Shown here: in pieces, positions 1-29,365 of the stretch
How the letters are laid out: each line of letters opens with the position of its first letter
Position numbering within the stretch: the first letter of the stretch is position 1
Origin: Mycoplasmatota bacterium
GTDB taxonomy: Bacteria > Bacillota_I > Bacilli_A > Izemoplasmatales > Izemoplasmataceae
Direction of reading: 5' to 3'
Assembly: GCA_030595255.1 (NCBI GenBank)
Contig: JAUVDP010000012.1
Span: forward strand, 1 to 32,955
DNA length: 32,955 bases
Position numbers and translations under genes: made by a program
The notes under the pieces: generated by a model
Seen by the model: the letters and a program-made list of their open reading frames with translations, nothing else
What the model was told of the DNA's origin: nothing
The model's database searches: none

Positions 1-1207
1 CTTTTACAATTGAATTAGTTAAATATCCTTCGCTAAATTCATCAATTATAATATATCCACTTGCTTCTTTTAAAGAATTAATCATTCCACTTTTCGCAAA
101 AAGTGGAGTTGCGATAAACTCATTATTTATATTACTTATTCTTACTAATTGATACATTCTTCTACCAGAGGGTGAATGTACATTAGTATCTAATCTTGCT
201 TCAAAATATGGAATAGGTAGTATATTATCTAGGTGATAAATTGTATTAACTATTTCATTAATAAATGTATTTAATACAAAGAACGCAGAAGTTGGTTGTC
301 CAGGTAACCCAAAGAATAACTTATTGTTATATTTAGCTATAATACTAGGTTTACCTGGCTTAATACTAATCCCATGAACTAGTAATTCTGCCCCAATGCT
401 TTCTAAAATAGCTAAAGTATAATCTTTATCTCCAACACTACTTCCGCCACTACTAAATACTATATCGCTGTTTTCAAATCCTTTTAAAACAGCTTCTTTA
501 TATGCCTCAAAATCATCATTGATAATCAATGATTCATTTACTACTATATTTTTATTTTTTAGATGATTACTAACAGTGTATGTATTAATATCTCTGATTT
601 CACCAATTAATAGCTCTTCTTTATCTTTAACAATTTCATCACCAGTTGAAATTACTAAAGCATTTAACTTCTCATAAACATTAATTTCTTTAATTCCAAT
701 TGATTTTAAAGCTCCAATTACTAAAGGAGTTATTAATGTATTCTTTTTAACTATTACTTGTCCTTCTAAAATATCACTGCCTTTTAATAAGACATTTTCA
801 TTTATTGAGACACTCTTATTAATTATTACTTCGTCACCTAGTAATTCTGTATTTTCAATCATAACTGCGGCATTTGCCCCTTTTGGCAAATGACCTCCAG
901 TAGGTACATAAACTGTAGTACTAGGAGTAACTATGTCAGTTGCTTCTTTACCCATCAATACTTCTCCAGTTAATTTTAAAATTGACGGAGTTGAAGACGT
1001 TGATAATTTCACACTATTAAAATCAACAGCATATCCATCAACAATACTTCTATTAAAATGAGGTACATCTTCTTTTGATATAATATCTTCAGCACTTACA
1101 TAATTTAAGGCTTCACTTAGTAATACTGTTTTAGTTTTTAAATTGTAATCACTAAAATTATCTTTAAGTAATTTAATTGTTTCATCAATTGATTTAACTA
1201 AGAACAT
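1..1207 (-). CDS. moeA: molybdopterin molybdenumtransferase MoeA (C-terminus runs off the window start)
   Basis: The minus-strand ORF leaves the window, so it is absent from the track. Translation from ATG (rc of 1205-1207), with SD AGGAGG just upstream, gives MFLVKSIDETIKLL..SIVDGYAVD..GGHLPKGANAAVMIENT..SGGSSVGDKDY..GLPGQPTSAF. These are MoeA/gephyrin-E landmarks, and the frame stays open for about 402 codons. The start overlaps the tupC stop by 14 nt. Confidence 0.8.
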   Translation of the reverse strand, partial: MFLVKSIDETIKLLKDNFSDYNLKTKTVLLSEALNYVSAEDIISKEDVPHFNRSIVDGYAVDFNSVKLSTSSTPSILKLTGEVLMGKEATDIVTPSTTVYVPTGGHLPKGANAAVMIENTELLGDEVIINKSVSINENVLLKGSDILEGQVIVKKNTLITPLVIGALKSIGIKEINVYEKLNALVISTGDEIVKDKEELLIGEIRDINTYTVSNHLKNKNIVVNESLIINDDFEAYKEAVLKGFENSDIVFSSGGSSVGDKDYTLAILESIGAELLVHGISIKPGKPSIIAKYNNKLFFGLPGQPTSAFFVLNTFINEIVNTIYHLDNILPIPYFEARLDTNVHSPSGRRMYQLVRISNINNEFIATPLFAKSGMINSLKEASGYIIIDEFSEGYLTNSIVK

Positions 1208-1785
1208 TTTTACCTCCTACCTTGTATTCCACATCTTTTAAATCATCAACAAAAGATTTATTGTGGCTTACAATAATAAAAGTAATTTTATTTTTAAGCT
1301 TTTTAATTAATTGTGTTAATTCATTTATAGACTCTAAATCAAGATGAGTTGTTGGTTCATCTAGTAATACTATATCTGGATTAAAAATAATTGATCTAAT
1401 TATCGATACTTTCATTTTTTCACCTGAAGATAATTTTAATGCATTATTTTCAAGTAAGTGTTCAATATCTAACAACTTAGCATATTCAATAATCTTATCA
1501 TGATATAAACTAATATCTAATTTTCTAACTTTTAAAGGATAAGCAATATTACAGTACGCAGTTCTATTAAAGATAACTGGTTCTTGACTATTATAAGTAA
1601 CGTTAGCATTAATCTTTAATGAACCTTCGTAATCTAAAAATGAAGCAAATACTCTAAGTAATGTTGTTTTACCTGCGCCATTACGTCCACTTATCACAGT
1701 AACTTTATTTTTCTCAAATCTAAAATCTTCAAAGATAAATTCTAAAGATTTCATTTTTACTTTCAAGTTTCTTATCTCAATCATA
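1194..1785 (-). CDS. tupC: tungstate/molybdate ABC transporter ATP-binding protein; short, with no TOBE domain, which fits TupC better than ModC
   Basis: Walker A GRNGAGKTTLL, ABC signature LSSGEKMKVSI, Walker B VLLDEPTTHLD. The likely true start is the internal ATG (MIEIRNLKV) at 1785, with SD GAGGTG 6 nt upstream. The track ORF extends to 1877 only through overlap with tupB. Confidence 0.65.
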
Positions 1786-2460
1786 AAAATCACCTCTAAA
1801 CCTTGCGAGTAAAGTATGTAGTAAGAAAGCAATAGATAGTAAAATGAATCCCATTGCGATAGACATTGAGTATTCACCCATACTATTATTTAAAGCGATA
1901 TAAGTAGTCATAACTCTTGTATCACCTTTAATATTTCCACCCACAAGCATTACTGCCCCTACTTCACTTAAAGCTCTAGAAAACCCTAAGATAATACTCA
2001 TAAATATAAAAGGTTTAGTTTCAATTATTAAGAGAAATATTTTATCAATTTTAGAAGCACCTAAGGTTGTCGCAGTTTCTAAAACTTTCTTTTGAGTTTT
2101 CTCACTTGTAATTATAATATTCCCGATAATAATCGGTAAAACAAGTAATGTTTGAGCTATATACATTGCTGATTTTGTAAATAGTAAATTCATCCCATCA
2201 AACGGTCCAGTAATTAGTAATAGTACTATAAGTCCTAGAACTACTGGAGGTATTCCCATCAAAGTAAATACGACCTTCTTAGTAAACCTCTTTAATTTAA
2301 AGTCGGAAATACTAATTAAGATTCCTAAGAAAGTACCAATAACTGAGGCAGTCAATGTAGCTAAAATTGATATAGTTAAAGACAGAAATATAATCGAATA
2401 TATTTCTGAATCAAAAGATATCAATAACTTAAATGCTTCAATAATACTTTCTAATATCAT
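1777..2460 (-). CDS. tupB: ABC transporter permease (TupB/ModB-like)
   Basis: 227 aa polytopic membrane protein with an EAA-like loop (LGASKIDKIFLLIIETKP). SD GGAGTG lies before the ATG. The gene overlaps tupC on one side and lies 6 nt from tupA on the other. Confidence 0.65.
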   Translation of the reverse strand: MILESIIEAFKLLISFDSEIYSIIFLSLTISILATLTASVIGTFLGILISISDFKLKRFTKKVVFTLMGIPPVVLGLIVLLLITGPFDGMNLLFTKSAMYIAQTLLVLPIIIGNIIITSEKTQKKVLETATTLGASKIDKIFLLIIETKPFIFMSIILGFSRALSEVGAVMLVGGNIKGDTRVMTTYIALNNSMGEYSMSIAMGFILLSIAFLLHTLLARFRGDFYD

Positions 2461-2466
2461 AAATTA

Positions 2467-3252
2467 TCACTCCGCATTAGGATAAAACATCTGTATGTCA
2501 CACATAATAAATTCAGATATTAAAATTTGGATATCACTTCTAAGTATCCAATCATAAAATAAATCAGCATTGTGATCGTCTCTATTATGTAAATCAGTAC
2601 TAACTTTAATAACTCCATACTGATTTACAAGTTCATTTGGATCTTCGTAAGCTACTTCTAATTCAAGATTATCTTCCATAGCACAAAAAGTAGCTATATC
2701 AGTTAAAGTATAATATCCACTAAGAGATGTCATATTTAAAGTAGTTCCCATCCCTTGTCCTGTTTCTTTATACCAATCTCCAAATGTAGATACATCATAT
2801 CCAAATGTATCCCATTGCTTTAATTCCTTCATATGAGTTCCTGAAGAATCTCCACGAGAATAAAAATCAAGTTCATTATCATAGATATAATCAAACGTAG
2901 CTTCAACACTATCTAAATCTAAAGCAACTGGACCCACTATTAAAAAATGATTAAACATCACATTACTTCTCTTTTCTCCATACCCTGCATTCATAAAAAT
3001 CATTTCACTATCATAGTCATGAGTAAATAGAATATCTGCTTCTCCCATTTCTCCCATTTCAAGTGCGGCCCCTGTACCTAAAGCAACTACTTTTACTTTC
3101 ACATCGTATTCTTCTTCAAAATAAGGAAGAATATACTCTAAAAAACCTGAGTTATCTAGAGACGTTGTAGTAACTAAAATTAGTTCTTCTTTGTTACATG
3201 AACTTAAAAATATTGTTAGTAATAAAGTCGTTAATAATAATACTTTTTTCAT
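2467..3252 (-). CDS. tupA: tungstate-binding lipoprotein TupA (substrate-binding protein)
   Basis: Lipoprotein signal MKKVLLLTTLLLTIFLSSC, and the TupA-characteristic TTTS motif (LVTTTSLDNSG). SD GAGGTG precedes the ATG. It is the first gene downstream of the riboswitch. Confidence 0.65.
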   Translation of the reverse strand: MKKVLLLTTLLLTIFLSSCNKEELILVTTTSLDNSGFLEYILPYFEEEYDVKVKVVALGTGAALEMGEMGEADILFTHDYDSEMIFMNAGYGEKRSNVMFNHFLIVGPVALDLDSVEATFDYIYDNELDFYSRGDSSGTHMKELKQWDTFGYDVSTFGDWYKETGQGMGTTLNMTSLSGYYTLTDIATFCAMEDNLELEVAYEDPNELVNQYGVIKVSTDLHNRDDHNADLFYDWILRSDIQILISEFIMCDIQMFYPNAE

Positions 3253-3262: not shown

Positions 3263-3303
3263 CAAAAAAAGACTTTTCACGCCAAAAAAGGAGTAAAAAG
3301 TCT
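3263..3303 (-). terminator. intrinsic terminator / riboswitch expression platform directly abutting the tupA RBS
   Basis: On the minus strand the sequence reads AGACTTTT-(21 nt)-AAAAGTCT followed by TTTTTTT. It sits immediately 5' of the GAGGTGATAGG-ATG of tupA. Confidence 0.4.
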
Positions 3304-3304
3304 A

Positions 3305-3398
3305 TAATCCTTTCCAAACGTGGGAGGCACATAAATTTCTTTATATACCCATCGGCTTAAAAGTCATAGATACCCTTAGACTTTTAAGCTCGGAATAC
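3305..3398 (-). ncRNA. molybdenum/tungsten cofactor (Moco/Tuco) riboswitch aptamer
   Basis: The minus-strand RNA reads ..UUCCGAGCUUAAAAGUC..GACUUUUAAGCCGAUGGG..GUGCCUCCCACGUUUGGAAAGG. It carries the hallmark CCGAG, GCCUCCC and GGAAAGG blocks of the Moco RNA motif (compare the E. coli moaA leader ..GCCUCCCGUAUCUGGAAAGG). An internal stem GCUUAAAAGUC/GACUUUUAAGC is present. It lies upstream of tupABC-moeA. The element is short, which suggests the P3-lacking tungsten-associated variant. Confidence 0.55.
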
Positions 3399-3411
3399 TT
3401 TTATTAATTAT

Positions 3412-3473: not shown

Positions 3474-3502
3474 TTGTAAAAATGTTTACAATATATTATA
3501 AT
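3474..3502 (+). promoter_or_regulatory. sigma-A-like promoter for the aor operon (TTGTAA-17-TATAAT)
   Basis: TTGTAA at 3474-3479, a 17-nt spacer, and TATAAT at 3497-3502. The RBS AGGGAGG is at 3524-3530. Confidence 0.3.
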
Positions 3503-3538: not shown

Positions 3539-5323
3539 ATGTTTGGATACATGGGTAAACTTCTAAGAATCAACTTAACGAATAACTCAATAAAAGTTGA
3601 AGACTTAGATTTAGAACTTGCAAAGAAATTTGTTGGAGGTCGAGGACTAGGAACTAAGATGCTTTACGATGAAATCGATCCTAAAATTGATGCTTTAAGT
3701 CCAGAAAATAAATTATTCTTCATAAATGGACCAATGAGTGGAACTCCTACCCCAACAGGTGGACGTTACATGGTTGTTACAAAATCACCTTTATCAGGAA
3801 CTATTGCTTCATCAAACTCAGGAGGAACTTGGGGTGCACGTCTTAAGTATGCAGGGTATGATGGAATTATCGTTGAAGGTAAAGCTGATATGCCTGTTTA
3901 TATCACAGTTACTGAAGAAAATGTTGAAATTAATGATGCATTTGATTTATGGGGTAAAACAGTTGGAGAAACTACAGATATATTACAAAAAGAAAAGAAA
4001 ACTAATGTATTAGCTATCGGACCTGCAGGAGAAAGATTAAGTAAAATAGCTGCTATCATGAATGATAAAGATAGAGCTGCAGGACGTAGTGGTGTTGGAG
4101 CAGTAATGGGAAGTAAAAACCTTAAAGCTATCGTAGTAACAGGAAACTTAAAAGTTAGTTTATTTGATGAAGAAGCTACTAAAGCTAACAACAAAGAAGC
4201 TACACAAAAACTTAAAGATAATCCAGTTACTGGTGAAGGATTACCAGCTTACGGAACTGCAGTACTAGTTAATGTAATTAACGCTAACGGTATGTTCCCA
4301 ACAAACAATTTCCAAGAAGGTGTATTTGCTAACGCAGAAGATATTTCAGGAGAAACTCTTGCTGAAAAGTATTTAGTTAGAAAAGACCCTTGTCACAGAT
4401 GTCCTATTGGATGTGGACGTTACACTAAAACTGATAAAGTTGAGGGTGGAGGTCCTGAATATGAAACTATCTGGGCATTTGGAGCTGATTGTGGAGTTAA
4501 AGATTTAGCTAAAATTATCGAAGCTAACTATTGGTGTAACCAATATGGTATCGATACTATTTCAGCTGGAGCTACTCTCGCTGCTGCAATGGAATTAAGC
4601 CAAATAGGTTTACTAGATCATGTAGATTTTGAAGGTCATAAACTTGAATTCGGTAACGATGACGCTATCGTTTATTGGACTAAGAAATTAGCTCTAAGAG
4701 AAGGATTCGGAGATGAAATGGCTGATGGATCTTATAGACTATGTGAAAAATATGGTCGTGCTGATTTATCAATGTCAGTTAAGAAACTAGAAATCCCAGC
4801 ATACGACCCTCGTGGTGTTCAAGGGCATGGATTAAACTATGCTACTTCAAACCGTGGTGGATGTCATGTACGTGGATATATGATTAGCCCTGAAATTTTA
4901 GGTTTACCAGCTAAGCTTGAAAGACAAGAACTTAAAGATAAACCTTTCTGGACTAAAACATTCCAAGATTTAACTGCATTTATTGACTCAACTGGTCTTT
5001 GCTTATTTACTTCATTTGCACTTGGTGCTGATGACTATGCTAAGATTTTTAATAGTATAGTAGGAACAAGCTGGAATGGTGACGATGTACTTAAAGCCGG
5101 AGAAAGAATTTATAACATTGAAAAACAATTTAACATAGAAGCAGGAATTTTACCTGAAGAAGATACTCTGCCTGAGAGATTCTTAAAAGTACCAATGCCT
5201 GCTGGTCCTACAGAAGGACATGTCCATCGCTTAAGCGAACTATTACCTGAATATTATGAATTAAGAGGTTGGGACAGTAAAGGTGCACCAACAAAAGAAA
5301 GATTAGAAGATTTAGGATTATAA
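3539..5323 (+). CDS. aor: tungsten-containing aldehyde:ferredoxin oxidoreductase (AOR family)
   Basis: 594 aa. The N-terminus (MFGYMGKLLRINLTN..VGGRGLG) is AOR-type, and the Cys motif DPCHRCPIGCGRY matches the AOR [4Fe-4S] site. The gene sits beside tungstate uptake genes. The SD is strong. Confidence 0.9.
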   Translation: MFGYMGKLLRINLTNNSIKVEDLDLELAKKFVGGRGLGTKMLYDEIDPKIDALSPENKLFFINGPMSGTPTPTGGRYMVVTKSPLSGTIASSNSGGTWGARLKYAGYDGIIVEGKADMPVYITVTEENVEINDAFDLWGKTVGETTDILQKEKKTNVLAIGPAGERLSKIAAIMNDKDRAAGRSGVGAVMGSKNLKAIVVTGNLKVSLFDEEATKANNKEATQKLKDNPVTGEGLPAYGTAVLVNVINANGMFPTNNFQEGVFANAEDISGETLAEKYLVRKDPCHRCPIGCGRYTKTDKVEGGGPEYETIWAFGADCGVKDLAKIIEANYWCNQYGIDTISAGATLAAAMELSQIGLLDHVDFEGHKLEFGNDDAIVYWTKKLALREGFGDEMADGSYRLCEKYGRADLSMSVKKLEIPAYDPRGVQGHGLNYATSNRGGCHVRGYMISPEILGLPAKLERQELKDKPFWTKTFQDLTAFIDSTGLCLFTSFALGADDYAKIFNSIVGTSWNGDDVLKAGERIYNIEKQFNIEAGILPEEDTLPERFLKVPMPAGPTEGHVHRLSELLPEYYELRGWDSKGAPTKERLEDLGL

Positions 5324-5328: not shown

Positions 5329-5358
5329 AAAAGGAATGAATAGGAATATTCATTCCTT
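5329..5358 (+). other. perfect 12-bp intercistronic hairpin between aor and the radical-SAM gene, with no U-tract
   Basis: AAGGAATGAATA-GGAA-TATTCATTCCTT, followed by CTTAATATG, the start of the radical-SAM gene. Confidence 0.4.
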
Positions 5359-5364
5359 CTTAAT

Positions 5365-6393
5365 ATGATAAAAAAAATATATATAGAACTCACAAATAGA
5401 TGTAATCTAACTTGTGATATGTGTTACAGGCATACGTGGGATAATATCCTTGGTGATATGGACAAAGAAACAATCAATAAATTATATAATCAAATAGAAA
5501 AACCTATCACCATGGTATTTGGTGGTATAGGAGAACCAACTGTTGCAAAGAATTTTGAATATGCAGTAGATAAGTTTAAAGAATTTGATTTAGAAATTAC
5601 AACAAACGGAATTATGAGTGAAGAAAAACTCTTTTTAATATGTCAAAATTTTAAAAATGTTATAATAAGTGTAGATGGTACAGAGGCAGATTATTATGAT
5701 ATTAGGAAAACAGATTTTAATAATGTTAAAAGAACAATCGAATACATTTATAATTACCGTAAAAAAAACGATGTGAAATTACCAGAAATGGAATTTGCTT
5801 TTGTAATATCAAAAGTTAACAAAGAAGCAATATATAAAGTTATTGACTGTGCAAGTAGAAACAATGTTAAAAAAATATTGATGTCTCATCTTCTTCCACA
5901 AAATTTACATCAACAAAATGAAATATGTTATACAGAATGTTATAACGAATTAGGACATGAATATGTTAAATTAGTTAATAAATATGCATACTTTGGAATG
6001 AGAGTTGTAGTATCTTTTCCATTTATGGAAATTAAAACAGATAGAATATGTCACTTCGTAGAAAACAACTATACATATATTGACTATACTGGTGAAGTTA
6101 GCCCTTGCTATCGATTTGCGAATACATATACAGAATGGGTTTTCGGAAGAGAAAAAACGGTACTAAAACATTCGTTTGGGAATATCTTAAAAGACAGTAT
6201 AAATGATATTTATAATAGTAAAAAGTACAAGGTATTTAGAGACTCAGTTTTACATGTAGATCATCCTAGTTGTGTTGATTGTGATTTGCGTGATGGATGT
6301 AGTTACGTTGATGACACAGAGTTTGACTGCTTAGGTAATTCTCCTAGTTGTGGAGACTGTTTATGGAATAGAAATATAATAAGATGTACGTAG
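5365..6393 (+). CDS. radical SAM protein with a C-terminal SPASM/twitch-like Cys-rich domain (Cmo-like AOR-associated maturase candidate)
   Basis: CNLTCDMC (CxxxCxxC) at residues 13-20. The C-terminus has CVDCDLRDGC..CLGNSPSCGDC, which supplies auxiliary-cluster cysteines. It follows aor directly and precedes moaD. Confidence 0.8.
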   Translation: MIKKIYIELTNRCNLTCDMCYRHTWDNILGDMDKETINKLYNQIEKPITMVFGGIGEPTVAKNFEYAVDKFKEFDLEITTNGIMSEEKLFLICQNFKNVIISVDGTEADYYDIRKTDFNNVKRTIEYIYNYRKKNDVKLPEMEFAFVISKVNKEAIYKVIDCASRNNVKKILMSHLLPQNLHQQNEICYTECYNELGHEYVKLVNKYAYFGMRVVVSFPFMEIKTDRICHFVENNYTYIDYTGEVSPCYRFANTYTEWVFGREKTVLKHSFGNILKDSINDIYNSKKYKVFRDSVLHVDHPSCVDCDLRDGCSYVDDTEFDCLGNSPSCGDCLWNRNIIRCT

Positions 6394-6405
6394 GTGATAT
6401 TAGAA

Positions 6406-6639
6406 ATGATTACAGTAAAATTGTATTCTGCAGTAAGAAAATATGGTGGGAAAGAAGTTCTTTTTGATCATAAAGATGGAATGACAGTTAGAGATATTGT
6501 TGAAGACTTAAAAATACCTCTAAAAGAGTTATCTATTATAATATTAGATAATTTTGATAGTACTCCTGACATTATGTTAGATAGAACAGTTAAAGACGGA
6601 GCATTACTTCATCTGTTTCCTCCAATGGCAGGAGGTTAA
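6406..6639 (+). CDS. moaD: MoaD/ThiS-family sulfur-carrier protein with a C-terminal Gly-Gly
   Basis: 77 aa ending ..LFPPMAGG. SD AGGTGA lies 8 nt before the ATG. The track ORF starts at GTG 6394, but the ATG at 6406 is the likelier start. Confidence 0.7.
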   Translation: MITVKLYSAVRKYGGKEVLFDHKDGMTVRDIVEDLKIPLKELSIIILDNFDSTPDIMLDRTVKDGALLHLFPPMAGG

Positions 6640-6661
6640 AATTATCAAATATAGTAGAAAT

Positions 6662-7315
6662 ATGGGAATAATGAATGATTTTGAACTTGAAAAGTTTAAA
6701 AAGACTAAAGCTTTAATCGTAGGTGTAGGTGGACTAGGTGGATACATTGCATCTAGTTTAGTTAGAATCGGGGTTAGCTCAATTACTATTGTTGATTTTG
6801 ATAAGTTTGATGATTCAAATTTAAATCGTCAACTATTCGCAACTTCAAAAACAATTAATAAATCTAAAGTAGAAGTTGTTAAACTGGAGCTATTAGATAT
6901 TAACCCAGAGTTAAATATCATTGCTATTAATTCAAAATTAGATGAATTATTTGATAAAACTTATTTTGAAGGAATAGATGTTGTATTTGATGCAGTTGAT
7001 AATATAAAATCTAAAGTTTTAATTGAAAAATATTGTTCTATATTTAATATTCCACTTATTCATGGCGCTATAGCGGGATGGTACGGACAACTAGGTATAA
7101 TAATGCCTGGTAGTAACATCTTAAGTGAATTATATAAAGATAAAGAAAAAGGTATTGAATCTGTCTTAATGAGTCCTACTTTTACTCCTGGTATAGTAGC
7201 TAATATGATGATTAGTGAGTTTGTAAAATTTGTATTAAAAAAAGAAGCTCTCGTTAATCAAATTCTTTATATAGACCTTCTTGATCATGAATATCGAATT
7301 ATATACAAAAAATAA
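6662..7315 (+). CDS. ThiF/MoeB-family E1-like adenylyltransferase (short form, with no rhodanese domain or Zn-Cys pairs)
   Basis: ALIVGVGGLGGYIASSLVRIGV (GxGxxG) and VDFDKFDDSNLNRQ, the hallmark of MoeB/ThiF. It is immediately downstream of moaD. Confidence 0.7.
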   Translation: MGIMNDFELEKFKKTKALIVGVGGLGGYIASSLVRIGVSSITIVDFDKFDDSNLNRQLFATSKTINKSKVEVVKLELLDINPELNIIAINSKLDELFDKTYFEGIDVVFDAVDNIKSKVLIEKYCSIFNIPLIHGAIAGWYGQLGIIMPGSNILSELYKDKEKGIESVLMSPTFTPGIVANMMISEFVKFVLKKEALVNQILYIDLLDHEYRIIYKK

Positions 7316-7344
7316 GCAAATCCAATTGGATTTGCTTTTTATTT
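7316..7344. terminator. bidirectional intrinsic terminator
   Basis: GCAAATCCAA-TT-GGATTTGC followed by TTTTTATTT, lying between the convergent genes 6662-7315 (+) and 7343-7678 (-). Confidence 0.7.
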
Positions 7345-7678
7345 ACTCTTCTTCACTAACGTAATCAGTTATAGTACATGCACCTGGATATTCATCATTT
7401 AAATAATTCTCAACACTTTCATTGTGTAGATAAGCCTGTTCTAAAATATTATCATGAGCTTCTTCATCCTGAAGAATATCATTAATATAATATTCATAAA
7501 CTCCATCATCCTTATATATAAATTTATATACATCATCATCTTTAGTACATACAGCAATTAAAGAACCAGATGGAATCTCCATTACATCAGGAGGTGCAAG
7601 TAATTTTTCTCTTAATCCACATCCTGAAAGTAATCCAATAACTAATATTAAACTAAATATTACTATTACTTTTTTCAT
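7343..7678 (-). CDS. small secreted lipoprotein, function unknown
   Basis: Signal peptide plus lipobox MKKVIVIFSLILVIGLLSGC, and an acidic C-terminus. Confidence 0.5.
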   Translation of the reverse strand: MKKVIVIFSLILVIGLLSGCGLREKLLAPPDVMEIPSGSLIAVCTKDDDVYKFIYKDDGVYEYYINDILQDEEAHDNILEQAYLHNESVENYLNDEYPGACTITDYVSEEE

Positions 7679-9324: not shown

Positions 9325-10416
9325 TCAAAATATCACCATATTATCCTCGTTGTGTGTAGTTTTTCCGTACCAATTTCTTTTATATCTTGCATCTTTAAAA
9401 TTACCTATTTTTTTAATCTTTTGTTCATTTAATAGATTCTTAATAACTTTTTTAATAGTTTCATGTGAAATATCAGGCCATACGAGATGAATCTCTTTTC
9501 TTGAAATAGGATTCCAACTCTTCTTAATTGTTTCTTCAATTCTAAATTTCTTACTTTTCTTTTCGTTATCTACAATTCTAAAACGGCTATTTAACTCAAT
9601 ATGGCAAGAATATAAAGATTCTAGAAAGTTTTCAATAAAAGGATTATAGTCATTACTATTATCATCCCAATTTATTGAAGATAATCTTATAGATTCATAA
9701 TATTCAGATTTATAGTTGTTAATTTGTTTCTCAAATGAAACAAATTCTCCAACGTTATATTCATTTCTAAATAATAGTAATAATGATAATAACCTTGATA
9801 TTCTACCATTACCTTCACTAAATGGTTGAATACAAAGGAAATCGAAAATTACACAAGGTATCAATAACAATCTAGGAATAGCTCTGTCATCTAGCGCTTC
9901 TTTAAAGCCTCTAACTAGCAGTTCCATCGCCCCATTAGTATCTTGTGAACTTACAGGGTTAAGAATAACTTTCCTAGTTCCATTTGGTAAATCCTCGGTA
10001 AATAAAATATCATTATCTTTATAAGCCCCTACTGAGTTTAGTCCTGTATGTAATAATAGTGTTTTATGAAAATCTCTTATAATATATTCATTAAATTGAA
10101 AGCTGTCATAATTAGTAAAAATCTCATTTATTACATCACTATAACCTAAAATTATTCCCTCACTCCGATTAACAGGATCTATGTGTTTGTCAATAAGTGA
10201 TTCAATTCTTTTATCAGTTGCAAAAATACCGTCAATAGCGTTAGATGCTTTTACAGATTGAGTTTTTGAAATATCTCGTAGATTACTAAATACTTTTGGA
10301 TACATTTCACTATTAATCATTCCAACTGCTTGAATTTTTTCAATTGATACTAATAATGACAAAACATTATTAGATATACGGTCTGTCTTTAAAAATGAAT
10401 AATCATAAACTTTCAC
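9325..10416 (-). CDS. Fic/DOC-family protein with a degenerate catalytic motif (QPFSEGNGRISR instead of HPFxEGNGRxxR)
   Basis: ..CIQPFSEGNGRISRLL, where the codon is CAA (Gln) in the place of His. The likely start is GTG 10416, with SD AGGAGTGA 7 nt upstream. The track ORF extends to GTG 10455, which is directly preceded by an in-frame TAG and has no SD. Confidence 0.7.
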   Translation of the reverse strand: MKVYDYSFLKTDRISNNVLSLLVSIEKIQAVGMINSEMYPKVFSNLRDISKTQSVKASNAIDGIFATDKRIESLIDKHIDPVNRSEGIILGYSDVINEIFTNYDSFQFNEYIIRDFHKTLLLHTGLNSVGAYKDNDILFTEDLPNGTRKVILNPVSSQDTNGAMELLVRGFKEALDDRAIPRLLLIPCVIFDFLCIQPFSEGNGRISRLLSLLLLFRNEYNVGEFVSFEKQINNYKSEYYESIRLSSINWDDNSNDYNPFIENFLESLYSCHIELNSRFRIVDNEKKSKKFRIEETIKKSWNPISRKEIHLVWPDISHETIKKVIKNLLNEQKIKKIGNFKDARYKRNWYGKTTHNEDNMVIF

Positions 10417-10430
10417 ATAATCACTCCTTA

Positions 10431-10520
10431 CTAGGTATATTTTATCATATTGCACCTAGTAAATCAATAATAATTCTTTTTACTAGGTATTTAATACAAT
10501 GTATTACCTAGTAAAATAAA
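10431..10520. promoter_or_regulatory. two tandem copies of a 9-bp inverted repeat (TACTAGGTA-N15-TACCTAGTA) over the fic promoter and 5'UTR
   Basis: Copy 1 is at 10431-10467 and overlaps the fic RBS region. Copy 2 is at 10484-10516. Both were read directly from the sequence. Confidence 0.3.
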
Positions 10521-13890: not shown

Positions 13891-13999
13891 TATTTAAAAT
13901 CATTACAATTCCAGAATTGTTTGTATAGAAAGTAAGCGTTTTTATGTTATGATAGTAATAAGGAATTATTTTGTACATCAAAACACTTTGGAGGCATAT

Positions 14000-15542
14000 T
14001 ATGAATAAAAACATATTAGACAAAATTAAAGTTGAAACACTAACGGCTAATCCTGAATTAAATGAGCCACATAAGAACTTACATGAGAAAGAAGTTAGAG
14101 TAGTTCTTAAGAACTGTGACATTATTAATCCTGAAAATATTAACCATTATATTGCTAAAGATGGTTATTTTGCGATTAATCAGATTTTAACAGGAATGTC
14201 ACAAGAAGATGTAATTAAAGTTGTATCTGATTCTGGACTTCGTGGTCGTGGTGGTGGTGGATTCCCTACAGGTAGAAAATGGAACTTTGCTTATAAAAAT
14301 GAAAATGATACGAAATATATAATATGTAATGCTGATGAAGGTGATCCAGGGGCATTTATGGATCGTTCAGTACTTGAAAAAGATCCACACAGTATTCTTG
14401 AAGGTATGATAATTGCGGGATTCGCAATTGGAGCTGAAACTGGGTTTATTTATGTTAGAGCTGAATACCCACTAGCAGCAGAAAGATTACAAAAAGCAAT
14501 TGATGATGCACTTGAACTTAATATCTTAGGTGAAAATATCTTTGGTACTAAGTTTAATTTTAAAATTGAAATTAGATTAGGTGCTGGGGCATTTGTTTGT
14601 GGTGAAGAAACAGCGTTAATTGCTTCAATAGAAGGTAATAGAGGCATGAGTAAAAATAAACCTCCTTATCCAGCTATTGAAGGATTATATGGTAAACCTA
14701 CAATTATTAATAACGTTGAAACGTTAGCTAATATATCTCAAATAATATTAAAAGGTAGTAAATGGTTTAGATCATTTGGTACAGAAAAATCTCCAGGAAC
14801 TAAAGTATTTGCTTTAGCTGGTAAAATTAAGAATACTGGACTTATTGAAGTTCCTATGGGAATAACTTTAGGTGAAATTATTCATGATATCGGTCGTGGT
14901 GTTGGGAACAAGAGAAAATTTAAAGCAGTTCTTACTGGTGGACCTAGTGGTGGGTGTTTAACTGAAAAACATTTGGATCAAGAAGTTGATTTTGATACAC
15001 TAGTAGCCCTTGGAAGTATGATGGGCTCAGGTGGAATGATTGTTTTAGATGATCATGACTGTATGGTTGATATTGCTAAATTCTATTTAGATTTTAGTGT
15101 AGATGAAAGTTGTGGTAAATGTACTCCTTGTAGAGAAGGTACTATCCAACTTTATAAATTATTAGAAAAAATCACTAATGGTGAAGGAACTATAGCTGAT
15201 TTAGATAAACTTAAAAAACTATCTAAAGCAGTTAAGAAAACTTCTTTATGTGGACTTGGTATGACAGCTCCAAATCCTATCTTATCAACATTAGAACATT
15301 TCTACGATGAGTATTTAGCTCATGTTACTCATAAAGTATGCCCAGCAAGTTCTTGTAGAGGGTTAATTGAAAAATATATAATCCAAGATAACTGTGTTGG
15401 ATGTACAATATGTGCTAAAAGATGCCCTGTTCAGTGTATAACTGGCGAGAGAAAGGGTCTTCACGTTATTGATCAAGATGCTTGTATCCAATGTGGAGAA
15501 TGTTTTGCATCATGTAATTTTGATGCAATAATTACTAAGTAG
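14000..15542 (+). CDS. NuoF-like NAD(H)/FMN/[4Fe-4S] subunit of a formate dehydrogenase complex (beta), with an extra C-terminal 2x[4Fe-4S] ferredoxin domain
   Basis: GLRGRGGGGFPTGRKW is the NuoF FMN site. CGKCTPCREG is present. The C-terminus has CVGCTICAKRCP..CIQCGECFASC. SD GGAGG lies before ATG 14000. The track start at 13971 is upstream of the SD. Confidence 0.85.
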
Positions 15543-15544
15543 AG

Positions 15545-18235
15545 GTGACTACGATGAAGATGATAAATTTAAAAATAAACGATCAAGAAATAGTTGTTGA
15601 AGCAGGGAAAAATATTTTAGATTATTGTGTAGAACTTGGAATAGATATTCCAACATTTTGTCATGATGAAAGAATCAAATCTGAAGGTGCATGTAGAATG
15701 TGTGTTGTTGAAGTTAAAGGAATAAATAGGCTACTAGCTAGTTGTGCTACTCCTGCAACTGATGGAATGGAAATTAAAACTCATTCACCTGAAGTTATGG
15801 AAGCTAGAAAAGATGTTCTTGAATTAACTTGGGCAAGTCATCCAAATGATTGCGTTGTATGTGATGCTAATGGTGATTGTAAACTTCAAGATTATTCATA
15901 TGAATATAATTTAACTTCTATTCCTGAATATGATGGACATAAAAGAAACTTTAGTATTGATGATTCTAATAAATTCTTTTATATCGATCCTGAAAAATGT
16001 ATTTTATGTGGTAAATGTGTTTATGTTTGTAAAGATCTTCAAGGTGTTGAAGCTTTAGGATTTAATCAACGTGGTCACGATACATTTATTTCATTCGCTT
16101 TTGATAATGGTATGGAACAATCAAATTGTGTTAGTTGTGGTAACTGTGTTAGTGTTTGTCCAACTGGTGCATTAATGGAAAAAAGTAACGTAATGTTTAG
16201 AAGTTGGGAAACTAAGAAAACAAGAACTACTTGTCCATATTGCGGTGTTGGTTGCCAATTTGATATCGTAACTAAAGGAGAACAAGTCGTTAGAATAGAC
16301 CCAGCTCCTGGAACTCCTAATGAAGGATTATTATGTGTTAAAGGTAAGTTTGCTTATAAATTCATTAACCATAAAGGTAGATTAACTAGTCCTTTAATTA
16401 AAGAAAACGGTGAATTTAGAGAAGCTTCATGGGATGAAGCTTATGATTTAATCGCTAGTAAATATACTGAATTAAATAATAAATACGGTTCAGCAACATT
16501 CGCAGGTCTTGCGAGTGCTAAATGTACTAATGAAGAAAACTATATGTTCCAAAAATTATTCCGTGCAGCAATTGGTACAAACAATGTAGATCACTGCGCT
16601 AGACTATGTCATGCTTCTACTGTTGCTGGACTAGCTACTACTTTAGGTAGTGGTGCAATGACTAACAGTATCGCTGAAGTAAAAGATCATGATGTAATAT
16701 TTGTTATTGGATCTAATACAACTGAAACACATCCTGTTATTGGATCATTTATGAAACAAGCGATTGCTAAAGGTTCTAAAATAATTGTTGCTGATCCTCG
16801 TGAAATTGAATTAGCGGAAGGTGCTGATGTATTCCTAAAAATACTACCTGGAACTAATGTACCTTTATTAAACGCAATGATGAAAGTAATTTATAATGAA
16901 AATCTTCATGATATAGATTATATTTCAGAAAGAACAGAAAACTTTGAAACTACTTTAGAAACAATACAAAACACTGATATTGAAGAAGCCGCAGAAATTT
17001 GTGGTATAGACGCAGAAGATATTAGAAAAGCAGCTAGAATTTATGCTGCTGGAAATAAAGCTGGAATATATTATGCTATGGGTATTACTCAACATTCACA
17101 AGGTACCAACAATGTTAAGAGTATAGCTAACTTAGCACTACTATGCGGTAATGTAGGAATTGAATCTGGTGGAATCAACCCGCTACGTGGACAAAATAAT
17201 GTTCAAGGTGCTTGTGATATGGGTGGATTACCTGATGTATTCCCAGGATATCAAAAAGTGTTTAATGATGAAGCACGAGCTAAGTTTGAAAAAGCTTGGG
17301 GTGTTAAATTAGATAATAAAGTTGGATTAAGTTTACCTCATGTACTTGATGGTGCTTATGAAGACCAAATTAGATTCTTATATATAATGGGTGAAAATCC
17401 TGTAGTAAGTGATCCAGATACAACACATGTTAAGAAATCATTAGACAACTTAGACTTCTTAATAGTTCAAGACTTATTCATGACTGAAACTGCTGAAATG
17501 GCGGACGTTATTTTACCTGCTTCTTCATACGCAGAAAAAGAAGGAACTTTCACTAATACTGAAAGACGTGTTCAAATGATAAGACCAGCAATTAAACCTG
17601 TTGGTGATAGTAAAGCTGATTATATAATCATTCAAGAAATCATGAATAAAATAGGATATAATCAACCTATATTAACTCCAAGTGAAATTATGGATGAAGT
17701 TGCTACTCTAACTCCTATCTACGGAGGGGTTAGTTATGATAGAATACAAGAATTGGGATTACAATGGCCAGTTTTAGACCATAATCATCCTGGTACCAAG
17801 TACCTACACAAAGATAAGTTCGCACGTGGTCTAGGTCTATTTAGTGAAGTAGAATTCGCAGAAGCTAAAGAATTACCTGATGAAAACTTCCCTATAGTTC
17901 TAACTACAGGACGTGTATTATATCACTTCCATACAATTTCAATGACAGGTAAAAACGAAGAAATTAATGAAATAGTTCCTGAAAACTTTATTGAAATTAG
18001 TCCAAAAACAGCAGAAAGTTATAAACTTAAACACATGGATCACGCTAGTATTTCATCGAGACGTGGAACAACAAAAGCAGTTGTTCACGTAACTGATAAA
18101 ATCGGAGACGGAGTTATGTTTATGCCATTCCATTTCGCTGATGGAGCAAATATGTTAACAAATACTGAATTAGACGCAACGTGTAATATCCCTGAACTTA
18201 AAGTTTGCGCTGTTCAGATTGATGGAAAGTTATAG
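15545..18235 (+). CDS. fdhA: formate dehydrogenase catalytic subunit (Mo/W-bis-PGD), Cys-type, with a NuoG-like N-terminal Fe-S region
   Basis: The N-terminus has a 2Fe-2S site (CHDE..CRMC) and ferredoxin CxxCxxCxxxCP motifs. The MopB cluster is TTCPYCGVGCQFD. The active site ARLCHASTVAGL has Cys-His where selenoprotein homologs have Sec-His. There is no in-frame TGA. Confidence 0.9.
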   Translation: MTTMKMINLKINDQEIVVEAGKNILDYCVELGIDIPTFCHDERIKSEGACRMCVVEVKGINRLLASCATPATDGMEIKTHSPEVMEARKDVLELTWASHPNDCVVCDANGDCKLQDYSYEYNLTSIPEYDGHKRNFSIDDSNKFFYIDPEKCILCGKCVYVCKDLQGVEALGFNQRGHDTFISFAFDNGMEQSNCVSCGNCVSVCPTGALMEKSNVMFRSWETKKTRTTCPYCGVGCQFDIVTKGEQVVRIDPAPGTPNEGLLCVKGKFAYKFINHKGRLTSPLIKENGEFREASWDEAYDLIASKYTELNNKYGSATFAGLASAKCTNEENYMFQKLFRAAIGTNNVDHCARLCHASTVAGLATTLGSGAMTNSIAEVKDHDVIFVIGSNTTETHPVIGSFMKQAIAKGSKIIVADPREIELAEGADVFLKILPGTNVPLLNAMMKVIYNENLHDIDYISERTENFETTLETIQNTDIEEAAEICGIDAEDIRKAARIYAAGNKAGIYYAMGITQHSQGTNNVKSIANLALLCGNVGIESGGINPLRGQNNVQGACDMGGLPDVFPGYQKVFNDEARAKFEKAWGVKLDNKVGLSLPHVLDGAYEDQIRFLYIMGENPVVSDPDTTHVKKSLDNLDFLIVQDLFMTETAEMADVILPASSYAEKEGTFTNTERRVQMIRPAIKPVGDSKADYIIIQEIMNKIGYNQPILTPSEIMDEVATLTPIYGGVSYDRIQELGLQWPVLDHNHPGTKYLHKDKFARGLGLFSEVEFAEAKELPDENFPIVLTTGRVLYHFHTISMTGKNEEINEIVPENFIEISPKTAESYKLKHMDHASISSRRGTTKAVVHVTDKIGDGVMFMPFHFADGANMLTNTELDATCNIPELKVCAVQIDGKL

Positions 18236-18244
18236 GTGAATAAA

Positions 18245-26937: not shown

Positions 26938-27025
26938 TCTCATCCTCCTATAAAAATACAAAAAAAAGTGAAAAAATCGCTTTTCACCTTGTATTATATT
27001 CTCCCTGCATAGCAACTATATATTA

Positions 27026-28699: not shown

Positions 28700-28766
28700 A
28701 ATATTACTTCCTTTCGTCTTTATTATGTAATTATTATAGCATACATATTTAAAAATCTCGAGGTAT

Positions 28767-29339: not shown

Positions 29340-29365
29340 CTTCTCACCTACTTATTCATAATTAC

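What the first reader, a model, noticed from the sequence alone, without database searches (positions are those of the whole stretch)
5329..7315. AOR followed by a radical-SAM/SPASM enzyme, MoaD and a minimal E1: candidate dedicated tungsten-cofactor/AOR maturation module
The operon order is aor, then a rSAM (CxxxCxxC plus SPASM-like CxxCx5C...Cx7CxxC), then moaD (GG tail), then a 217-aa ThiF/MoeB-like protein with the adenylation motifs but no CxxC zinc site or rhodanese domain. A MoaA-like cmo gene is known next to aor in Pyrococcus. Here, however, the rSAM carries a SPASM-type auxiliary-cluster region typical of protein/peptide-modifying enzymes. A private MoaD/E1 pair is attached. This suggests a sulfur-insertion or post-translational step specific to AOR-type tungstopterin (for example dithiolene or sulfido ligand delivery). 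It would be separate from the housekeeping moa genes, which lie elsewhere (a second moaD-like gene is at 28451). A perfect 12-bp hairpin without a U-tract (5329-5358) separates aor from these genes. It could act as an mRNA stabiliser or partial attenuator, giving a high AOR-to-maturase stoichiometry.
Basis: partly seen in the sequence, partly recalled or inferred. Interest (0 to 1): 0.55.

Follow-up and report, generated by a model that had tools for sequence, protein, structure and literature searches.

The report
Known tungsten-enzyme accessory gene cluster
The genes after the tungsten aldehyde oxidoreductase are a divergent copy of an already described accessory cluster (Cmo-type radical SAM protein, MoaD-like sulfur carrier, small ThiF-like activator), so the finding is real but not new, and what the radical SAM protein does is still unknown.

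Summary
A perfect 12-bp hairpin (5331-5358) lies between aor and the radical SAM gene.

The claimed novelty does not hold. The radical SAM protein belongs to NCBIfam TIGR04317, "tungsten cofactor oxidoreductase radical SAM maturase" (E 8e-102; 340.9 bits, below the 380 cut-off). That is the same family as Pyrococcus cmo, which carries the same SPASM region and all nine C-terminal cysteines. AOR-linked MoaD/MoeB clusters were described in 2006. The AOR-linked MoaD paralogue was deleted in Thermococcus kodakarensis in 2024, and the ThiS-like gene was named WorX in 2026.

Of 37 related loci with full flanks, 25 have an AOR gene and 24 a ThiS-like gene within 3 kb; 7 have the ThiF-like gene. All 36 loci with aor directly upstream carry a strong hairpin in that gap, which fits differential expression.

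The window also holds a Moco/Wco riboswitch, tupABC and moeA next to aor. One unexpected result: family members that pass the cut-off also sit in arsenic-resistance operons. The enzyme's chemistry remains untested.

The parts
2..1207 (-). moeA (molybdopterin metal insertase); its C-terminus is cut by the window edge
   Evidence: Open frame found. NCBIfam MoeA models give 368 and 252 bits, E 6e-110. The homologous ORF in L001 continues upstream, next to a second MoeA-like ORF.
1194..3252 (-). tupC (1194-1877), tupB (1777-2460) and tupA (2467-3252): tungstate ABC transporter
   Evidence: Best NCBIfam matches are TupA NF041772 (182.6 bits, E 9e-54) and TupB NF041773 (127.7 bits); the TupC/WtpC models also match. 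All are below their equivalog cut-offs. Pfam gives PBP_like_2 and ABC_tran.
3291..3407 (-). Moco/Wco riboswitch aptamer upstream of tupA; it lacks the short hairpin at model positions 60-75
   Evidence: Rfam RF01055, 81.4 bits against a gathering score of 36, E 1e-19, full model 1-135.
3474..3502 (+). promoter-like site upstream of aor (TTGTAA-17-TATAAT)
   Evidence: Consensus scan, 10 of 12 matches. This is a consensus match only.
3539..5323 (+). aor: tungsten-type aldehyde:ferredoxin oxidoreductase, single-subunit type
   Evidence: Pfam AFOR_N 276 bits and AFOR_C 501 bits.
5331..5358 (+). perfect 12-bp hairpin with a GGAA loop between aor and the radical SAM gene; outer pairs 5317-5322 / 5364-5369 join the aor stop region to the radical SAM AUG
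   Evidence: Fold gives -17.6 kcal/mol, z = -5.1. The same stem sequence occurs in L001, L002 and L004, with an A:T to T:A swap at the stem top in L004. A strong hairpin occupies this gap in 36 of 36 loci.
5365..6393 (+). Cmo-type radical SAM/SPASM protein (TIGR04317 family)
   Evidence: TIGR04317 E 8e-102, 340.9 bits over the full length. Pfam Radical_SAM plus SPASM. All 12 cysteines conserved in 85-86 of 86 relatives. AF2 model with pLDDT 89; its closest solved folds are SkfB, SuiB, CteB, BlsE and anSME.
6406..6639 (+). MoaD/ThiS-like sulfur-carrier protein (WorX/UblC type) ending in Gly-Gly; the ORF is open from GTG 6394
   Evidence: Pfam ThiS 29.8 bits against a cut-off of 22.5. C-terminus is ...MAGG. 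Among ThiS-like neighbours in related loci whose alignment reaches the ORF end, 53 of 57 end in GG.
6662..7315 (+). short ThiF/MoeB-type adenylyltransferase without zinc-binding CxxC pairs and without a rhodanese domain
   Evidence: Pfam ThiF 167 bits. One Cys in 217 aa. Nucleotide-binding motifs align with E1 enzymes. All 11 short ThiF-like genes beside the carrier gene lack CxxC.
7314..7337 (.). bidirectional terminator-like hairpin that closes the operon and the convergent gene 7343-7678
   Evidence: 10-bp stem followed by T-runs on both strands.

Best explanation
This is a tungsten-utilisation locus in an Izimaplasma-like bacterium. It is about 96% identical to Ca. Izimaplasma HR2 over the radical SAM protein.

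Layout. A riboswitch-controlled tupABC-moeA unit faces the operon aor - radical SAM - moaD-like - thiF-like. The three downstream genes are the accessory set that recurrently travels with AOR-family genes.

Likely mechanism (inferred, not shown here):
1. The ThiF-like E1 adenylates the C-terminal Gly-Gly of the MoaD-like carrier.
2. The carrier is converted to a thiocarboxylate.
3. The carrier donates sulfur for the dithiolene of the pyranopterin. AOR needs two pyranopterins per tungsten. This step would require a MoaE encoded elsewhere.
4. The Cmo-type radical SAM protein has one SAM cluster and nine further invariant cysteines, enough for two auxiliary [4Fe-4S] clusters. It performs a further radical step on the cofactor or on apo-AOR. 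Its chemistry is unknown.
5. The hairpin after aor acts as a leaky transcript end or 3' stabiliser, and it also buries the radical SAM start codon. AOR is therefore made in excess over its helpers.

What is shown: the homology, the conserved gene order, the conserved cysteines and the conserved hairpin position.
What comes from the literature: deleting the AOR-linked MoaD paralogue in Thermococcus kodakarensis lowers the activity of tungsten enzymes.
What is inferred: every biochemical step in this organism.
For: - Family assignment: TIGR04317 E 8e-102 over the full length, whereas MoaA models reach only 35-41 bits.
- Full-length homologues include Pyrococcus proteins named 'cofactor modifying protein' or 'tungsten cofactor oxidoreductase radical SAM maturase'. 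P0090 scores 502.7 bits and P0053, which has the same gene order, scores 398.1; both are above the cut-off.
- The order aor-rSAM-ThiS-ThiF recurs in L002, L004 and L006. P. abyssi has aor-ThiS-rSAM.
- Co-occurrence across 37 full-flank loci: AOR 25, ThiS 24, ThiF 7. The AOR context is spread over the whole family tree.
- All 12 cysteines are conserved.
- Carrier tails end in GG in 53 of 57 cases, and 11 of 11 linked E1s are zinc-less.
- Hairpin: z = -5.1. Its stem sequence is shared by relatives at 53-62% protein identity, with one compensatory swap. In 36 of 36 loci the gap holds a strong hairpin, mean best -23.5 kcal/mol against -15.6 inside aor, and 12 have T-tracts.
- Tungsten context: riboswitch, tupABC and moeA.
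- Literature: PMC1779556 describes AOR-linked MoaD/MoeB clusters. PMC11323500 reports tk1066 aor, tk1065 UblC and tk1064 radical SAM; in the ublC deletion AOR activity is about 54% and FOR is undetectable in pyruvate medium, and tk1065-tk1064 form their own transcription unit. PMC13328260 names WorX and thiF as likely pterin-biosynthesis genes. PMC6365974 describes aorD/aorE.
Against: - No experiment on any TIGR04317 protein was found, so 'maturase' is a name derived from gene context.
- The window protein falls below the curated cut-off (340.9 against 380).
- About 30% of full-flank loci have neither an AOR nor a ThiS gene nearby. Members that pass the cut-off sit in ars operons, so the family may not be AOR-specific.
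- Some AORs, such as that of Aromatoleum, have MoaD-like genes but no radical SAM gene in their operon as described (PMC6365974).
- No MoaE is present in the window, and the rest of the genome could not be searched.
- The hairpin lacks a U-tract and has only 3 G-C pairs, so termination efficiency is uncertain.
Confidence: 0.7

Rival explanations
1. The radical SAM protein is a functional MoaA (GTP 3',8-cyclase). Together with the MoaD-like carrier and the E1 it forms a private early pathway that makes pyranopterin for AOR.
For: There is weak similarity to MoaA in the radical SAM core (MoaA models 35-41 bits; PDB MoaA E 5e-12 over residues 16-189). PMC1779556 labelled the neighbouring radical SAM genes 'MoaA'.
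Against: - MoaA model scores are far below their cut-offs (231-325 bits), and the match covers only the N-terminal core.
- The C-terminal half is a SPASM domain with nine invariant cysteines and ends ...IIRCT. MoaA instead has a three-Cys cluster and a Gly-Gly tail.
- In the fold search MoaA ranks 21st, with TM about 0.5, behind SPASM and Twitch enzymes.
- From memory, Thermococcales also carry a separate archaeal MoaA.
Confidence: 0.06
2. The radical SAM protein modifies the AOR polypeptide, in the manner of anSME or peptide-modifying SPASM enzymes. Alternatively the MoaD-like protein is conjugated to AOR like a ubiquitin-type modifier. In either case the target is not the cofactor.
For: The closest solved folds are protein- or peptide-modifying SPASM enzymes: SkfB, SuiB, CteB and anSME. 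T. kodakarensis Ubls are also conjugated to target proteins (PMC11323500 abstract).
Against: - The protein has no N-terminal peptide-recognition domain; the radical SAM core starts at residue 5.
- Small-molecule SPASM/Twitch enzymes (BlsE, BtrN) match about equally well.
- The term 'post-translational' does not occur in the paper on the 1.59 A CaAFOR structure (PMC12727526).
- Family members occur without any AOR gene nearby.
Confidence: 0.12
3. The module delivers a terminal sulfido or sulfhydryl ligand to tungsten in AOR. The MoaD thiocarboxylate would be the sulfur source and the radical SAM protein the inserting enzyme.
For: Whether AORs carry a sulfur ligand on tungsten is an open question. 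Sulfide reactivates some homologues, and a cofactor sulfurase gene lies near the C. autoethanogenum AFOR gene (PMC12727526).
Against: - There is no direct evidence.
- Sulfide did not reactivate CaAFOR, and its structure shows oxygen ligands (PMC12727526).
- Known sulfido delivery systems (FdhD, MOSC/NifS-type sulfurases; PMC13197769, PMC12727526) do not use MoaD or radical SAM enzymes.
- The T. kodakarensis data fit a role in pterin synthesis (PMC11323500).
Confidence: 0.1
4. The radical SAM family has a broader role in metal or metalloid handling and is not specific to AOR. The aor linkage would be only its most common context.
For: - Members above the TIGR04317 cut-off (429.4 and 420.5 bits) lie between ArsR and bona fide ACR3 arsenite pumps (TIGR00832, 460 and 398 bits) in L056 and L040. 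L005 has ArsD, ArsR and a cation-efflux gene beside it.
- About 10 of 86 loci have ars-like neighbours, scattered over the tree.
- All 12 cysteines are retained in these members.
- A Marinitoga member follows two moeA genes.
Against: The AOR/ThiS context is dominant and spans the tree. The ars-linked copies could be secondary recruitments with new substrates. No literature supports this reading.
Confidence: 0.1
5. The 5331-5358 palindrome is a DNA operator for a dimeric regulator, or purely a translational control element for the radical SAM gene, and not a transcript-end element.
For: - The stem sequence itself, not only the pairing, is conserved among Izimaplasma-like relatives at 53-62% protein identity.
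- The extended fold pairs the radical SAM AUG with the aor stop region.
- No Shine-Dalgarno sequence precedes the AUG.
Against: In more distant loci the same gap holds unrelated G+C-rich hairpins, many with T-tracts. That points to a structural RNA role, not a shared operator. One compensatory swap keeps the pairing in L004.
Confidence: 0.2

Closest known systems
Pyrococcus/Thermococcus aor-moaD-cmo cluster (P. furiosus cmo, 'cofactor modifying protein'; T. kodakarensis tk1066-tk1065-tk1064)
   Same: - It has the same radical SAM family: 35-36% identity over the full length, the same SPASM region and the same 12 conserved cysteines.
- A MoaD/ThiS-like carrier ending in GG lies next to aor.
- The accessory genes are transcribed separately from, or downstream of, aor (PMC11323500).
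   Different: - The gene order differs: aor-moaD-rSAM in the archaea, aor-rSAM-moaD-thiF here.
- The archaeal cluster contains no E1.
- The archaeal proteins have N- and C-terminal extensions.
- The window protein scores below the curated family cut-off.
AOR-linked MoaD/MoeB 'tungsten cofactor biosynthesis' neighbourhood of Iyer, Burroughs and Aravind 2006 (PMC1779556); WorX plus thiF next to class I WORs (PMC13328260)
   Same: A dedicated MoaD-like gene lies strictly adjacent to aor, often with a MoeB/ThiF gene and a radical SAM gene, and apart from the main Moco operon. The role proposed there is also supply of pterin for the tungsten cofactor.
   Different: Nothing essential differs. This is a further instance, in an Izimaplasma-like lineage, with a zinc-less short E1.
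Aromatoleum aromaticum aorABCDE (PMC6365974)
   Same: MoaD-like genes (aorD, aorE) at the end of an aor operon are regarded as tungsten-cofactor maturation factors. Many metagenomic relatives found here also carry two tandem ThiS-like genes.
   Different: That AOR has three subunits. The operon as described has no radical SAM gene and no E1.
MoaA (GTP 3',8-cyclase)
   Same: It has a radical SAM core with CxxxCxxC and belongs to the molybdenum/tungsten cofactor field.
   Different: Its C-terminal domain, auxiliary-cluster cysteine pattern and C-terminal tail all differ. Model scores are far below the cut-offs.
anSME and other SPASM/Twitch radical SAM enzymes (SkfB, SuiB, CteB, BlsE, BtrN)
   Same: These are the closest solved folds, with Foldseek E 1e-10 to 1e-13 and TM 0.58-0.64. 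They share the SPASM auxiliary-cluster domain.
   Different: Sequence identity is only 12-19%. The window protein has no peptide-recognition domain and has two cysteines beyond the seven of the canonical SPASM pattern recalled from memory. Its substrate is unknown.
Short ThiF of thiamine operons (NCBIfam PRK08644, TIGR02354) and E. coli MoeB/ThiF
   Same: It has the adenylation fold and motifs and a similar size.
   Different: It is below all equivalog cut-offs, has no zinc-binding CxxC pairs, and its context is aor and not thiamine genes.

Membership tests
NCBIfam TIGR04317 (tungsten cofactor oxidoreductase radical SAM maturase; Cmo) | Whole-protein score at or above the curated cut-off (380 bits) | tested here: not met
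   340.9 bits, E 8e-102, residues 2-341 aligned to model positions 3-348 of 349. The close relative P0004 also falls short (344.7 bits). P0053, with the same gene order, passes at 398.1, and the Pyrococcus abyssi-type P0090 passes at 502.7.
NCBIfam TIGR04317 (tungsten cofactor oxidoreductase radical SAM maturase; Cmo) | Radical SAM CxxxCxxC motif plus a SPASM domain with the family's conserved C-terminal cysteines | tested here: met
   C13, C17 and C20, and C229, C248, C303, C306, C312, C322, C329, C332 and C341, are each present in 85-86 of 86 relatives. Pfam Radical_SAM and SPASM are both above their gathering scores.
NCBIfam TIGR04317 (tungsten cofactor oxidoreductase radical SAM maturase; Cmo) | Gene adjacent to an AOR-family (tungsten oxidoreductase) gene | tested here: met
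   The gene starts 41 nt after the aor stop. Of 37 full-flank relatives, 25 have an AOR gene within 3 kb.
NCBIfam TIGR04317 (tungsten cofactor oxidoreductase radical SAM maturase; Cmo) | Demonstrated role in maturing a tungsten enzyme | not testable with these tools
   No biochemical or genetic study of any family member was found.
MoaA (GTP 3',8-cyclase; TIGR02666, TIGR02668, NF001199) | Score above the curated cut-offs, with a match over the full length | tested here: not met
   35.4, 41.5 and 41.0 bits against cut-offs of 284, 325 and 231. Only residues 2-206 align.
MoaA (GTP 3',8-cyclase; TIGR02666, TIGR02668, NF001199) | C-terminal three-Cys GTP-binding cluster and a Gly-Gly tail (recalled from memory) | tested here: not met
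   The C-terminal half is a SPASM domain with nine cysteines, and the protein ends ...IIRCT. MoaA ranks 21st in the fold search.
MoaD/ThiS sulfur-carrier proteins | Beta-grasp ThiS-family domain | tested here: met
   Pfam PF02597, 29.8 bits against 22.5. The narrower NCBIfam models SAMP1 (29.6 against 60) and MoaD_arch (25.8 against 49.5) are not reached.
MoaD/ThiS sulfur-carrier proteins | Free C-terminal Gly-Gly for adenylation and thiocarboxylation | tested here: met
   The protein ends ...PPMAGG followed by a stop codon.
MoaD/ThiS sulfur-carrier proteins | Formation of a C-terminal thiocarboxylate and sulfur transfer to the pterin precursor through MoaE | not testable with these tools
   No MoaE is present in the window, and the remainder of the genome could not be searched.
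ThiF/MoeB-type E1 adenylyltransferases | ThiF-family Rossmann fold with nucleotide-binding motifs | tested here: met
   Pfam PF00899, 167 bits. GVGGLGG, NLNRQ and DAVDN align with E1 active-site motifs. No NCBIfam equivalog cut-off is reached; the best matches are ThiF TIGR02356 at 126 against 275 and PRK08644 at 113.8 against 159.
ThiF/MoeB-type E1 adenylyltransferases | Structural zinc site made of two CxxC pairs, as in E. coli MoeB/ThiF (recalled from memory) | tested here: not met
   There is one Cys in 217 aa. All 11 short ThiF-like genes beside the carrier gene also lack CxxC, whereas the unlinked MoeB-like gene in L031 has two.
Intrinsic (Rho-independent) terminators | G+C-rich stem followed directly by a U-tract | tested here: not met
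   The 12-bp stem has 3 G-C pairs and the tail is CUUAAUAU. The consensus scan does not report it. Hairpins at the same position in many distant relatives do meet the definition.
Moco/Wco riboswitch (Rfam RF01055), for the element upstream of tupA | Score above the Rfam gathering threshold over the full model | tested here: met
   81.4 bits against 36, model positions 1-135, at 3291-3407 (-).

The most novel reading that the evidence does not exclude
The Cmo/TIGR04317 radical SAM enzymes may not be AOR-specific maturases. They may catalyse a still unknown radical reaction on a metal- or metalloid-thiolate species that is shared between tungsten-cofactor assembly and arsenic handling. Two observations leave this open: members that pass the family cut-off sit between ArsR and ACR3 in several unrelated lineages, and they keep all 12 cysteines. 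If so, the aor-linked copy in this window would carry out a missing, tungsten-specific step of cofactor assembly that no known Moco gene accounts for.
Probability: 0.12. Interest if true: 0.7.

Novelty: new member of a known kind. Interest (0 to 1): 0.3.

Why it matters
AOR-type tungsten enzymes are of practical interest for reducing acids to aldehydes and for bioethanol production, and they are hard to produce in active form. The accessory genes that travel with them are obvious candidates for what heterologous hosts lack.

This window adds nothing new in kind. It does offer a compact tungsten locus from a bacterium with a low-G+C genome: riboswitch, transporter, moeA, aor and three helper genes. 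That set could be moved as one unit into an expression host.

The analysis also shows that the curated family model misses this lineage. It further shows that the family name 'tungsten cofactor oxidoreductase maturase' may be too narrow, because some members sit in arsenic-resistance operons.

Tried and rejected
The rest of the genome therefore could not be checked for moaA, moaC, moaE or moeB.
- Literature searches for TIGR04317, its name, 'cofactor modifying protein' and SPASM plus tungsten found no study of the enzyme. The 1995 cmo paper (PMC177251) is not held.
- A search of all fetched loci for a co-located canonical MoaA found one extra radical SAM ORF (L066). It is not MoaA: 58.9 bits against a cut-off of 284.
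- The hairpin is not a repeated element. There is a single match in the window even with 3 mismatches allowed.
- A 10-codon mini-ORF (5336-5368) lies inside the hairpin, and its TGA overlaps the radical SAM ATG. I rejected it as a coupling device. Its AAGGA abuts the ATG with no spacer, and the arrangement is kept in L002 but not in L004.
- Rfam found no known RNA family at the hairpin.
- The first hairpin-survey script timed out. A lighter version with in-gene controls replaced it.
- The profile search against PDB sequences found no solved member of the family.


Full report
**What is in the sequence**

- aor (3539-5323, 594 aa) carries the two Pfam AOR domains.
- 41 nt downstream, a 342-aa ORF (5365-6393) has the radical SAM motif C13-x3-C17-x2-C20 and a Pfam SPASM domain.
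- Next is a ThiS/MoaD-like ORF ending in ...MAGG. It is open from GTG 6394. It more likely starts at ATG 6406, behind AGGTGA, which gives 77 aa as in its relatives.
- The last gene is a 217-aa ThiF-family protein (6662-7315). It has intact nucleotide-binding motifs, a single cysteine and no second domain.
- A hairpin with T-runs at 7314-7337 closes the unit.

The hairpin between aor and the radical SAM gene is a perfect 12-bp stem (5331-5342 / 5347-5358) with a GGAA loop. The extended fold has -17.6 kcal/mol, z = -5.1, and no shuffle out of 200 folds as well. One correction to the cysteine spacing: the tail reads Cx6CxxC, not Cx7CxxC.

**What the radical SAM protein is**

Its best NCBIfam match is TIGR04317, 'tungsten cofactor oxidoreductase radical SAM maturase'. 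The match has E 8e-102 and 340.9 bits and covers both protein and model end to end. The score is below the curated cut-off of 380. MoaA models reach only 35-41 bits and cover only the N-terminal core.

A database search returned 108 homologues. They include Pyrococcus proteins named 'cofactor modifying protein' and 'tungsten cofactor oxidoreductase radical SAM maturase', at 34-37% identity over 99-100% of the query. All have precomputed SPASM domains. Scores on TIGR04317 for selected relatives:
- Pyrococcus abyssi-type protein P0090: 502.7 bits.
- Caldanaerovirga protein P0053, whose locus has exactly the window's gene order: 398.1 bits.
- The window's closer relative P0004: 344.7 bits, also just short of the cut-off.

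The window protein is therefore a divergent member of the cmo family, from a low-G+C lineage that the model's threshold misses.

In an alignment of 22 diverse members, and again in 86 members, three N-terminal and nine C-terminal cysteines are conserved in 85-86 of 86 sequences. Nine C-terminal cysteines are enough for two fully ligated auxiliary [4Fe-4S] clusters, with one to spare.

An AlphaFold model built from the alignment is confident (mean pLDDT 89, pTM 0.88). Its nearest solved folds are SPASM and Twitch enzymes: SkfB, SuiB, CteB, BlsE and anSME, with TM 0.58-0.64. MoaA ranks 21st. No member of the family has a solved structure.

**Co-occurrence**

I fetched neighbourhoods of nine homologues individually and 80 metagenomic loci with a family alignment. 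I then scored all six-frame ORFs with profiles for AOR, ThiS-like and ThiF-like proteins.

Of 37 non-redundant loci with at least 2.5 kb on both sides:

| Feature within 3 kb | Loci (of 37) |
|---|---|
| AOR gene | 25 |
| ThiS-like gene | 24 |
| Two tandem ThiS-like genes | 8 |
| ThiF-like gene | 7 |
| Neither AOR nor ThiS | 11 |

- The exact order aor-rSAM-ThiS-ThiF recurs in the window's clade and in Firmicutes-like relatives (L002, L004, L006, L012, L016, L018, L088).
- Thermococcales have aor-ThiS-rSAM.
- On a neighbour-joining tree the AOR/ThiS context spans the whole family.
- Among ThiS-like neighbours whose alignment reaches the ORF end, 53 of 57 end in GG.
- All 11 short ThiF-like genes beside the carrier gene lack CxxC. 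The 'minimal E1' is therefore a conserved subtype and not a peculiarity of this window.

**Prior knowledge**

[quoted passage not shown] These often come with MoeB and occasionally 'MoaA', apart from the main Moco operon. The authors proposed that they make molybdopterin for the tungsten cofactor of AORs.
- In Thermococcus kodakarensis, tk1065 (UblC, MoaD family) lies between aor (tk1066) and the radical SAM gene (tk1064) and forms an operon with tk1064. Deleting ublC lowers AOR activity to about 54% and abolishes FOR activity in pyruvate medium (PMC11323500).
- A 2026 classification of tungsten oxidoreductases calls the ThiS-like gene WorX. It notes worX and thiF next to single-subunit enzymes and treats neighbouring genes with 'SAM-like' or ThiS annotations as pterin-biosynthesis genes of unknown exact function (PMC13328260).
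- Aromatoleum aromaticum has two MoaD-like genes, aorD and aorE, at the end of its aor operon (PMC6365974).
- I found no experimental work on the radical SAM protein itself.
- Whether AORs carry a sulfur ligand on tungsten remains open (PMC12727526).

**The hairpin**

The same stem sequence (AAGGAATGAAT...ATTCATTCCTT) occurs in the aor-rSAM gap of relatives whose radical SAM proteins are only 62% (L002) and 53% (L004) identical. The loops differ, and an A:T to T:A swap at the top of the stem in L004 keeps the pairing.

In more distant loci the sequence is unrelated, but the architecture is the same. All 36 loci with aor directly upstream have a strong hairpin in the gap. The mean best hairpin is -23.5 kcal/mol, against -15.6 for windows of equal length inside aor. 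Many are canonical terminators with 10-14-bp G+C-rich stems, and 12 have T-tracts.

This agrees with the separate transcription unit reported for tk1065-tk1064 (PMC11323500).

In the window the gap is only 41 nt, there is no U-tract, and no Shine-Dalgarno sequence precedes the radical SAM AUG. That AUG is paired with the aor stop region in the extended fold. Both read-through and translation of the helper genes are therefore expected to be low. This is inference; 3'-end mapping is needed.

**Surroundings**

The locus is a tungsten island.
- Upstream and divergent from aor lie tupA, tupB and tupC. Their best matches are the TupA/TupB/TupC models.
- Beyond them lies moeA, cut by the window edge.
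- This unit is preceded by a Moco/Wco riboswitch at 3291-3407 on the minus strand (81.4 bits). It lacks the short hairpin at model positions 60-75. From memory, that variant was linked to tungsten-cofactor genes.
- A formate dehydrogenase alpha subunit with NuoF- and NuoE-like partners lies at 13971-18739.
- The second ThiS-like gene (28451-28699) ends VGGG and is about 26% identical to the first. It sits beside NUDIX and DUF364 genes, not moa genes.

**An unexpected side result**

Several family members without an AOR neighbour sit in arsenic-resistance contexts.
- In L056 and L040 the radical SAM gene passes the TIGR04317 cut-off (429.4 and 420.5 bits). In L056 it lies between an ArsR-family gene and an ACR3 pump that passes TIGR00832 (460 bits). 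In L040 the ACR3 pump (398 bits) follows the gene, and an ArsR-like ORF lies within 3.5 kb.
- L005 has ArsD, ArsR and a cation-efflux gene.
- About 10 of 86 loci are of this kind. They are scattered over the tree and keep all 12 cysteines.
- I found no literature on this.

This means either repeated recruitment to a new task, or a chemistry that is not specific to AOR.

**Verdict**

The interpretation as a dedicated AOR/tungsten-cofactor accessory module is reasonable and matches what is already in databases and papers, so the finding is a new member of a known kind.

The most likely working model is as follows. A private E1 and carrier pair feeds sulfur into pyranopterin synthesis for AOR. 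A Cmo-type radical SAM/SPASM enzyme does an as yet unknown step. A leaky hairpin keeps helper expression low. The first and third parts have indirect support. The radical SAM step is unknown.

Noticed in passing
window 3291-3407 (-): A Moco/Wco riboswitch (Rfam RF01055, 81.4 bits) lies upstream of tupA. It lacks the short hairpin at model positions 60-75. From memory, that variant was associated with tungsten-cofactor genes.
   Followed up: partly
window 2-3252 (-): moeA (cut by the window edge) and tupC, tupB and tupA are transcribed divergently from aor. Together with the aor operon they form a compact tungsten island. The relative L001 has a second MoeA-like ORF further upstream.
   Followed up: partly
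L056 4443-7163; L040 2584-5362; L005 5048-8124: Radical SAM proteins that pass the TIGR04317 cut-off (429 and 420 bits) lie next to ArsR-family genes and bona fide ACR3 arsenite pumps, or next to ArsD, ArsR and a cation-efflux gene, with no AOR gene nearby. About 10 of 86 loci are of this kind, they are scattered over the family tree, and all 12 cysteines are kept.
   Followed up: partly
L076 6058-6288 and 6311-6664 (likewise L051, L064, L045 and others): In loci with two tandem ThiS-like genes after the radical SAM gene, the first ends in Gly-Gly. The second has no Gly-Gly and carries a conserved tail of about 38 aa (SMWPFQYRHG...).
   Followed up: no
L004 (CP074575.1), about 5938-5955: In this complete Mycoplasmatota genome the radical SAM gene has an in-frame TAA where relatives have the nearly invariant Tyr6. 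The called protein (P0029) consequently starts inside the CxxxCxxC motif. This is either a pseudogene or a sequencing error.
   Followed up: no
window 5336-5368 (+): A 10-codon mini-ORF (MNRNIHSFLI) lies inside the hairpin, and its TGA overlaps the radical SAM ATG (ATGA). The arrangement is kept in L002 but not in L004, so it is probably incidental.
   Followed up: partly
window 13971-18739 (+): A NuoF-like gene, a formate dehydrogenase alpha subunit (TIGR01591, 851.8 bits, above its cut-off) and a NuoE-like gene lie together. They look like an NAD-linked formate dehydrogenase, a second Mo/W enzyme in the window.
   Followed up: no
window 28451-30091 (-): A second ThiS-like gene ends VGGG. It lies next to a NUDIX hydrolase and a DUF364 ('putative heavy-metal chelation') gene, with no moa genes beside it.
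   Followed up: partly
window 24976-27015 (-) and 9325-10455 (-): There is a 679-aa protein with a TIR domain (TIR_2 / ThsB-like) and a Fic-domain protein. Both are possibly related to defence or toxin functions.
   Followed up: no
P0099, P0100, P0106 (alignment A1, columns 1-50): Anaerolineae-type homologues carry an N-terminal extension of about 45 aa that looks like an AbrB/SpoVT-type swapped-hairpin domain. This was not checked against Pfam.
   Followed up: no
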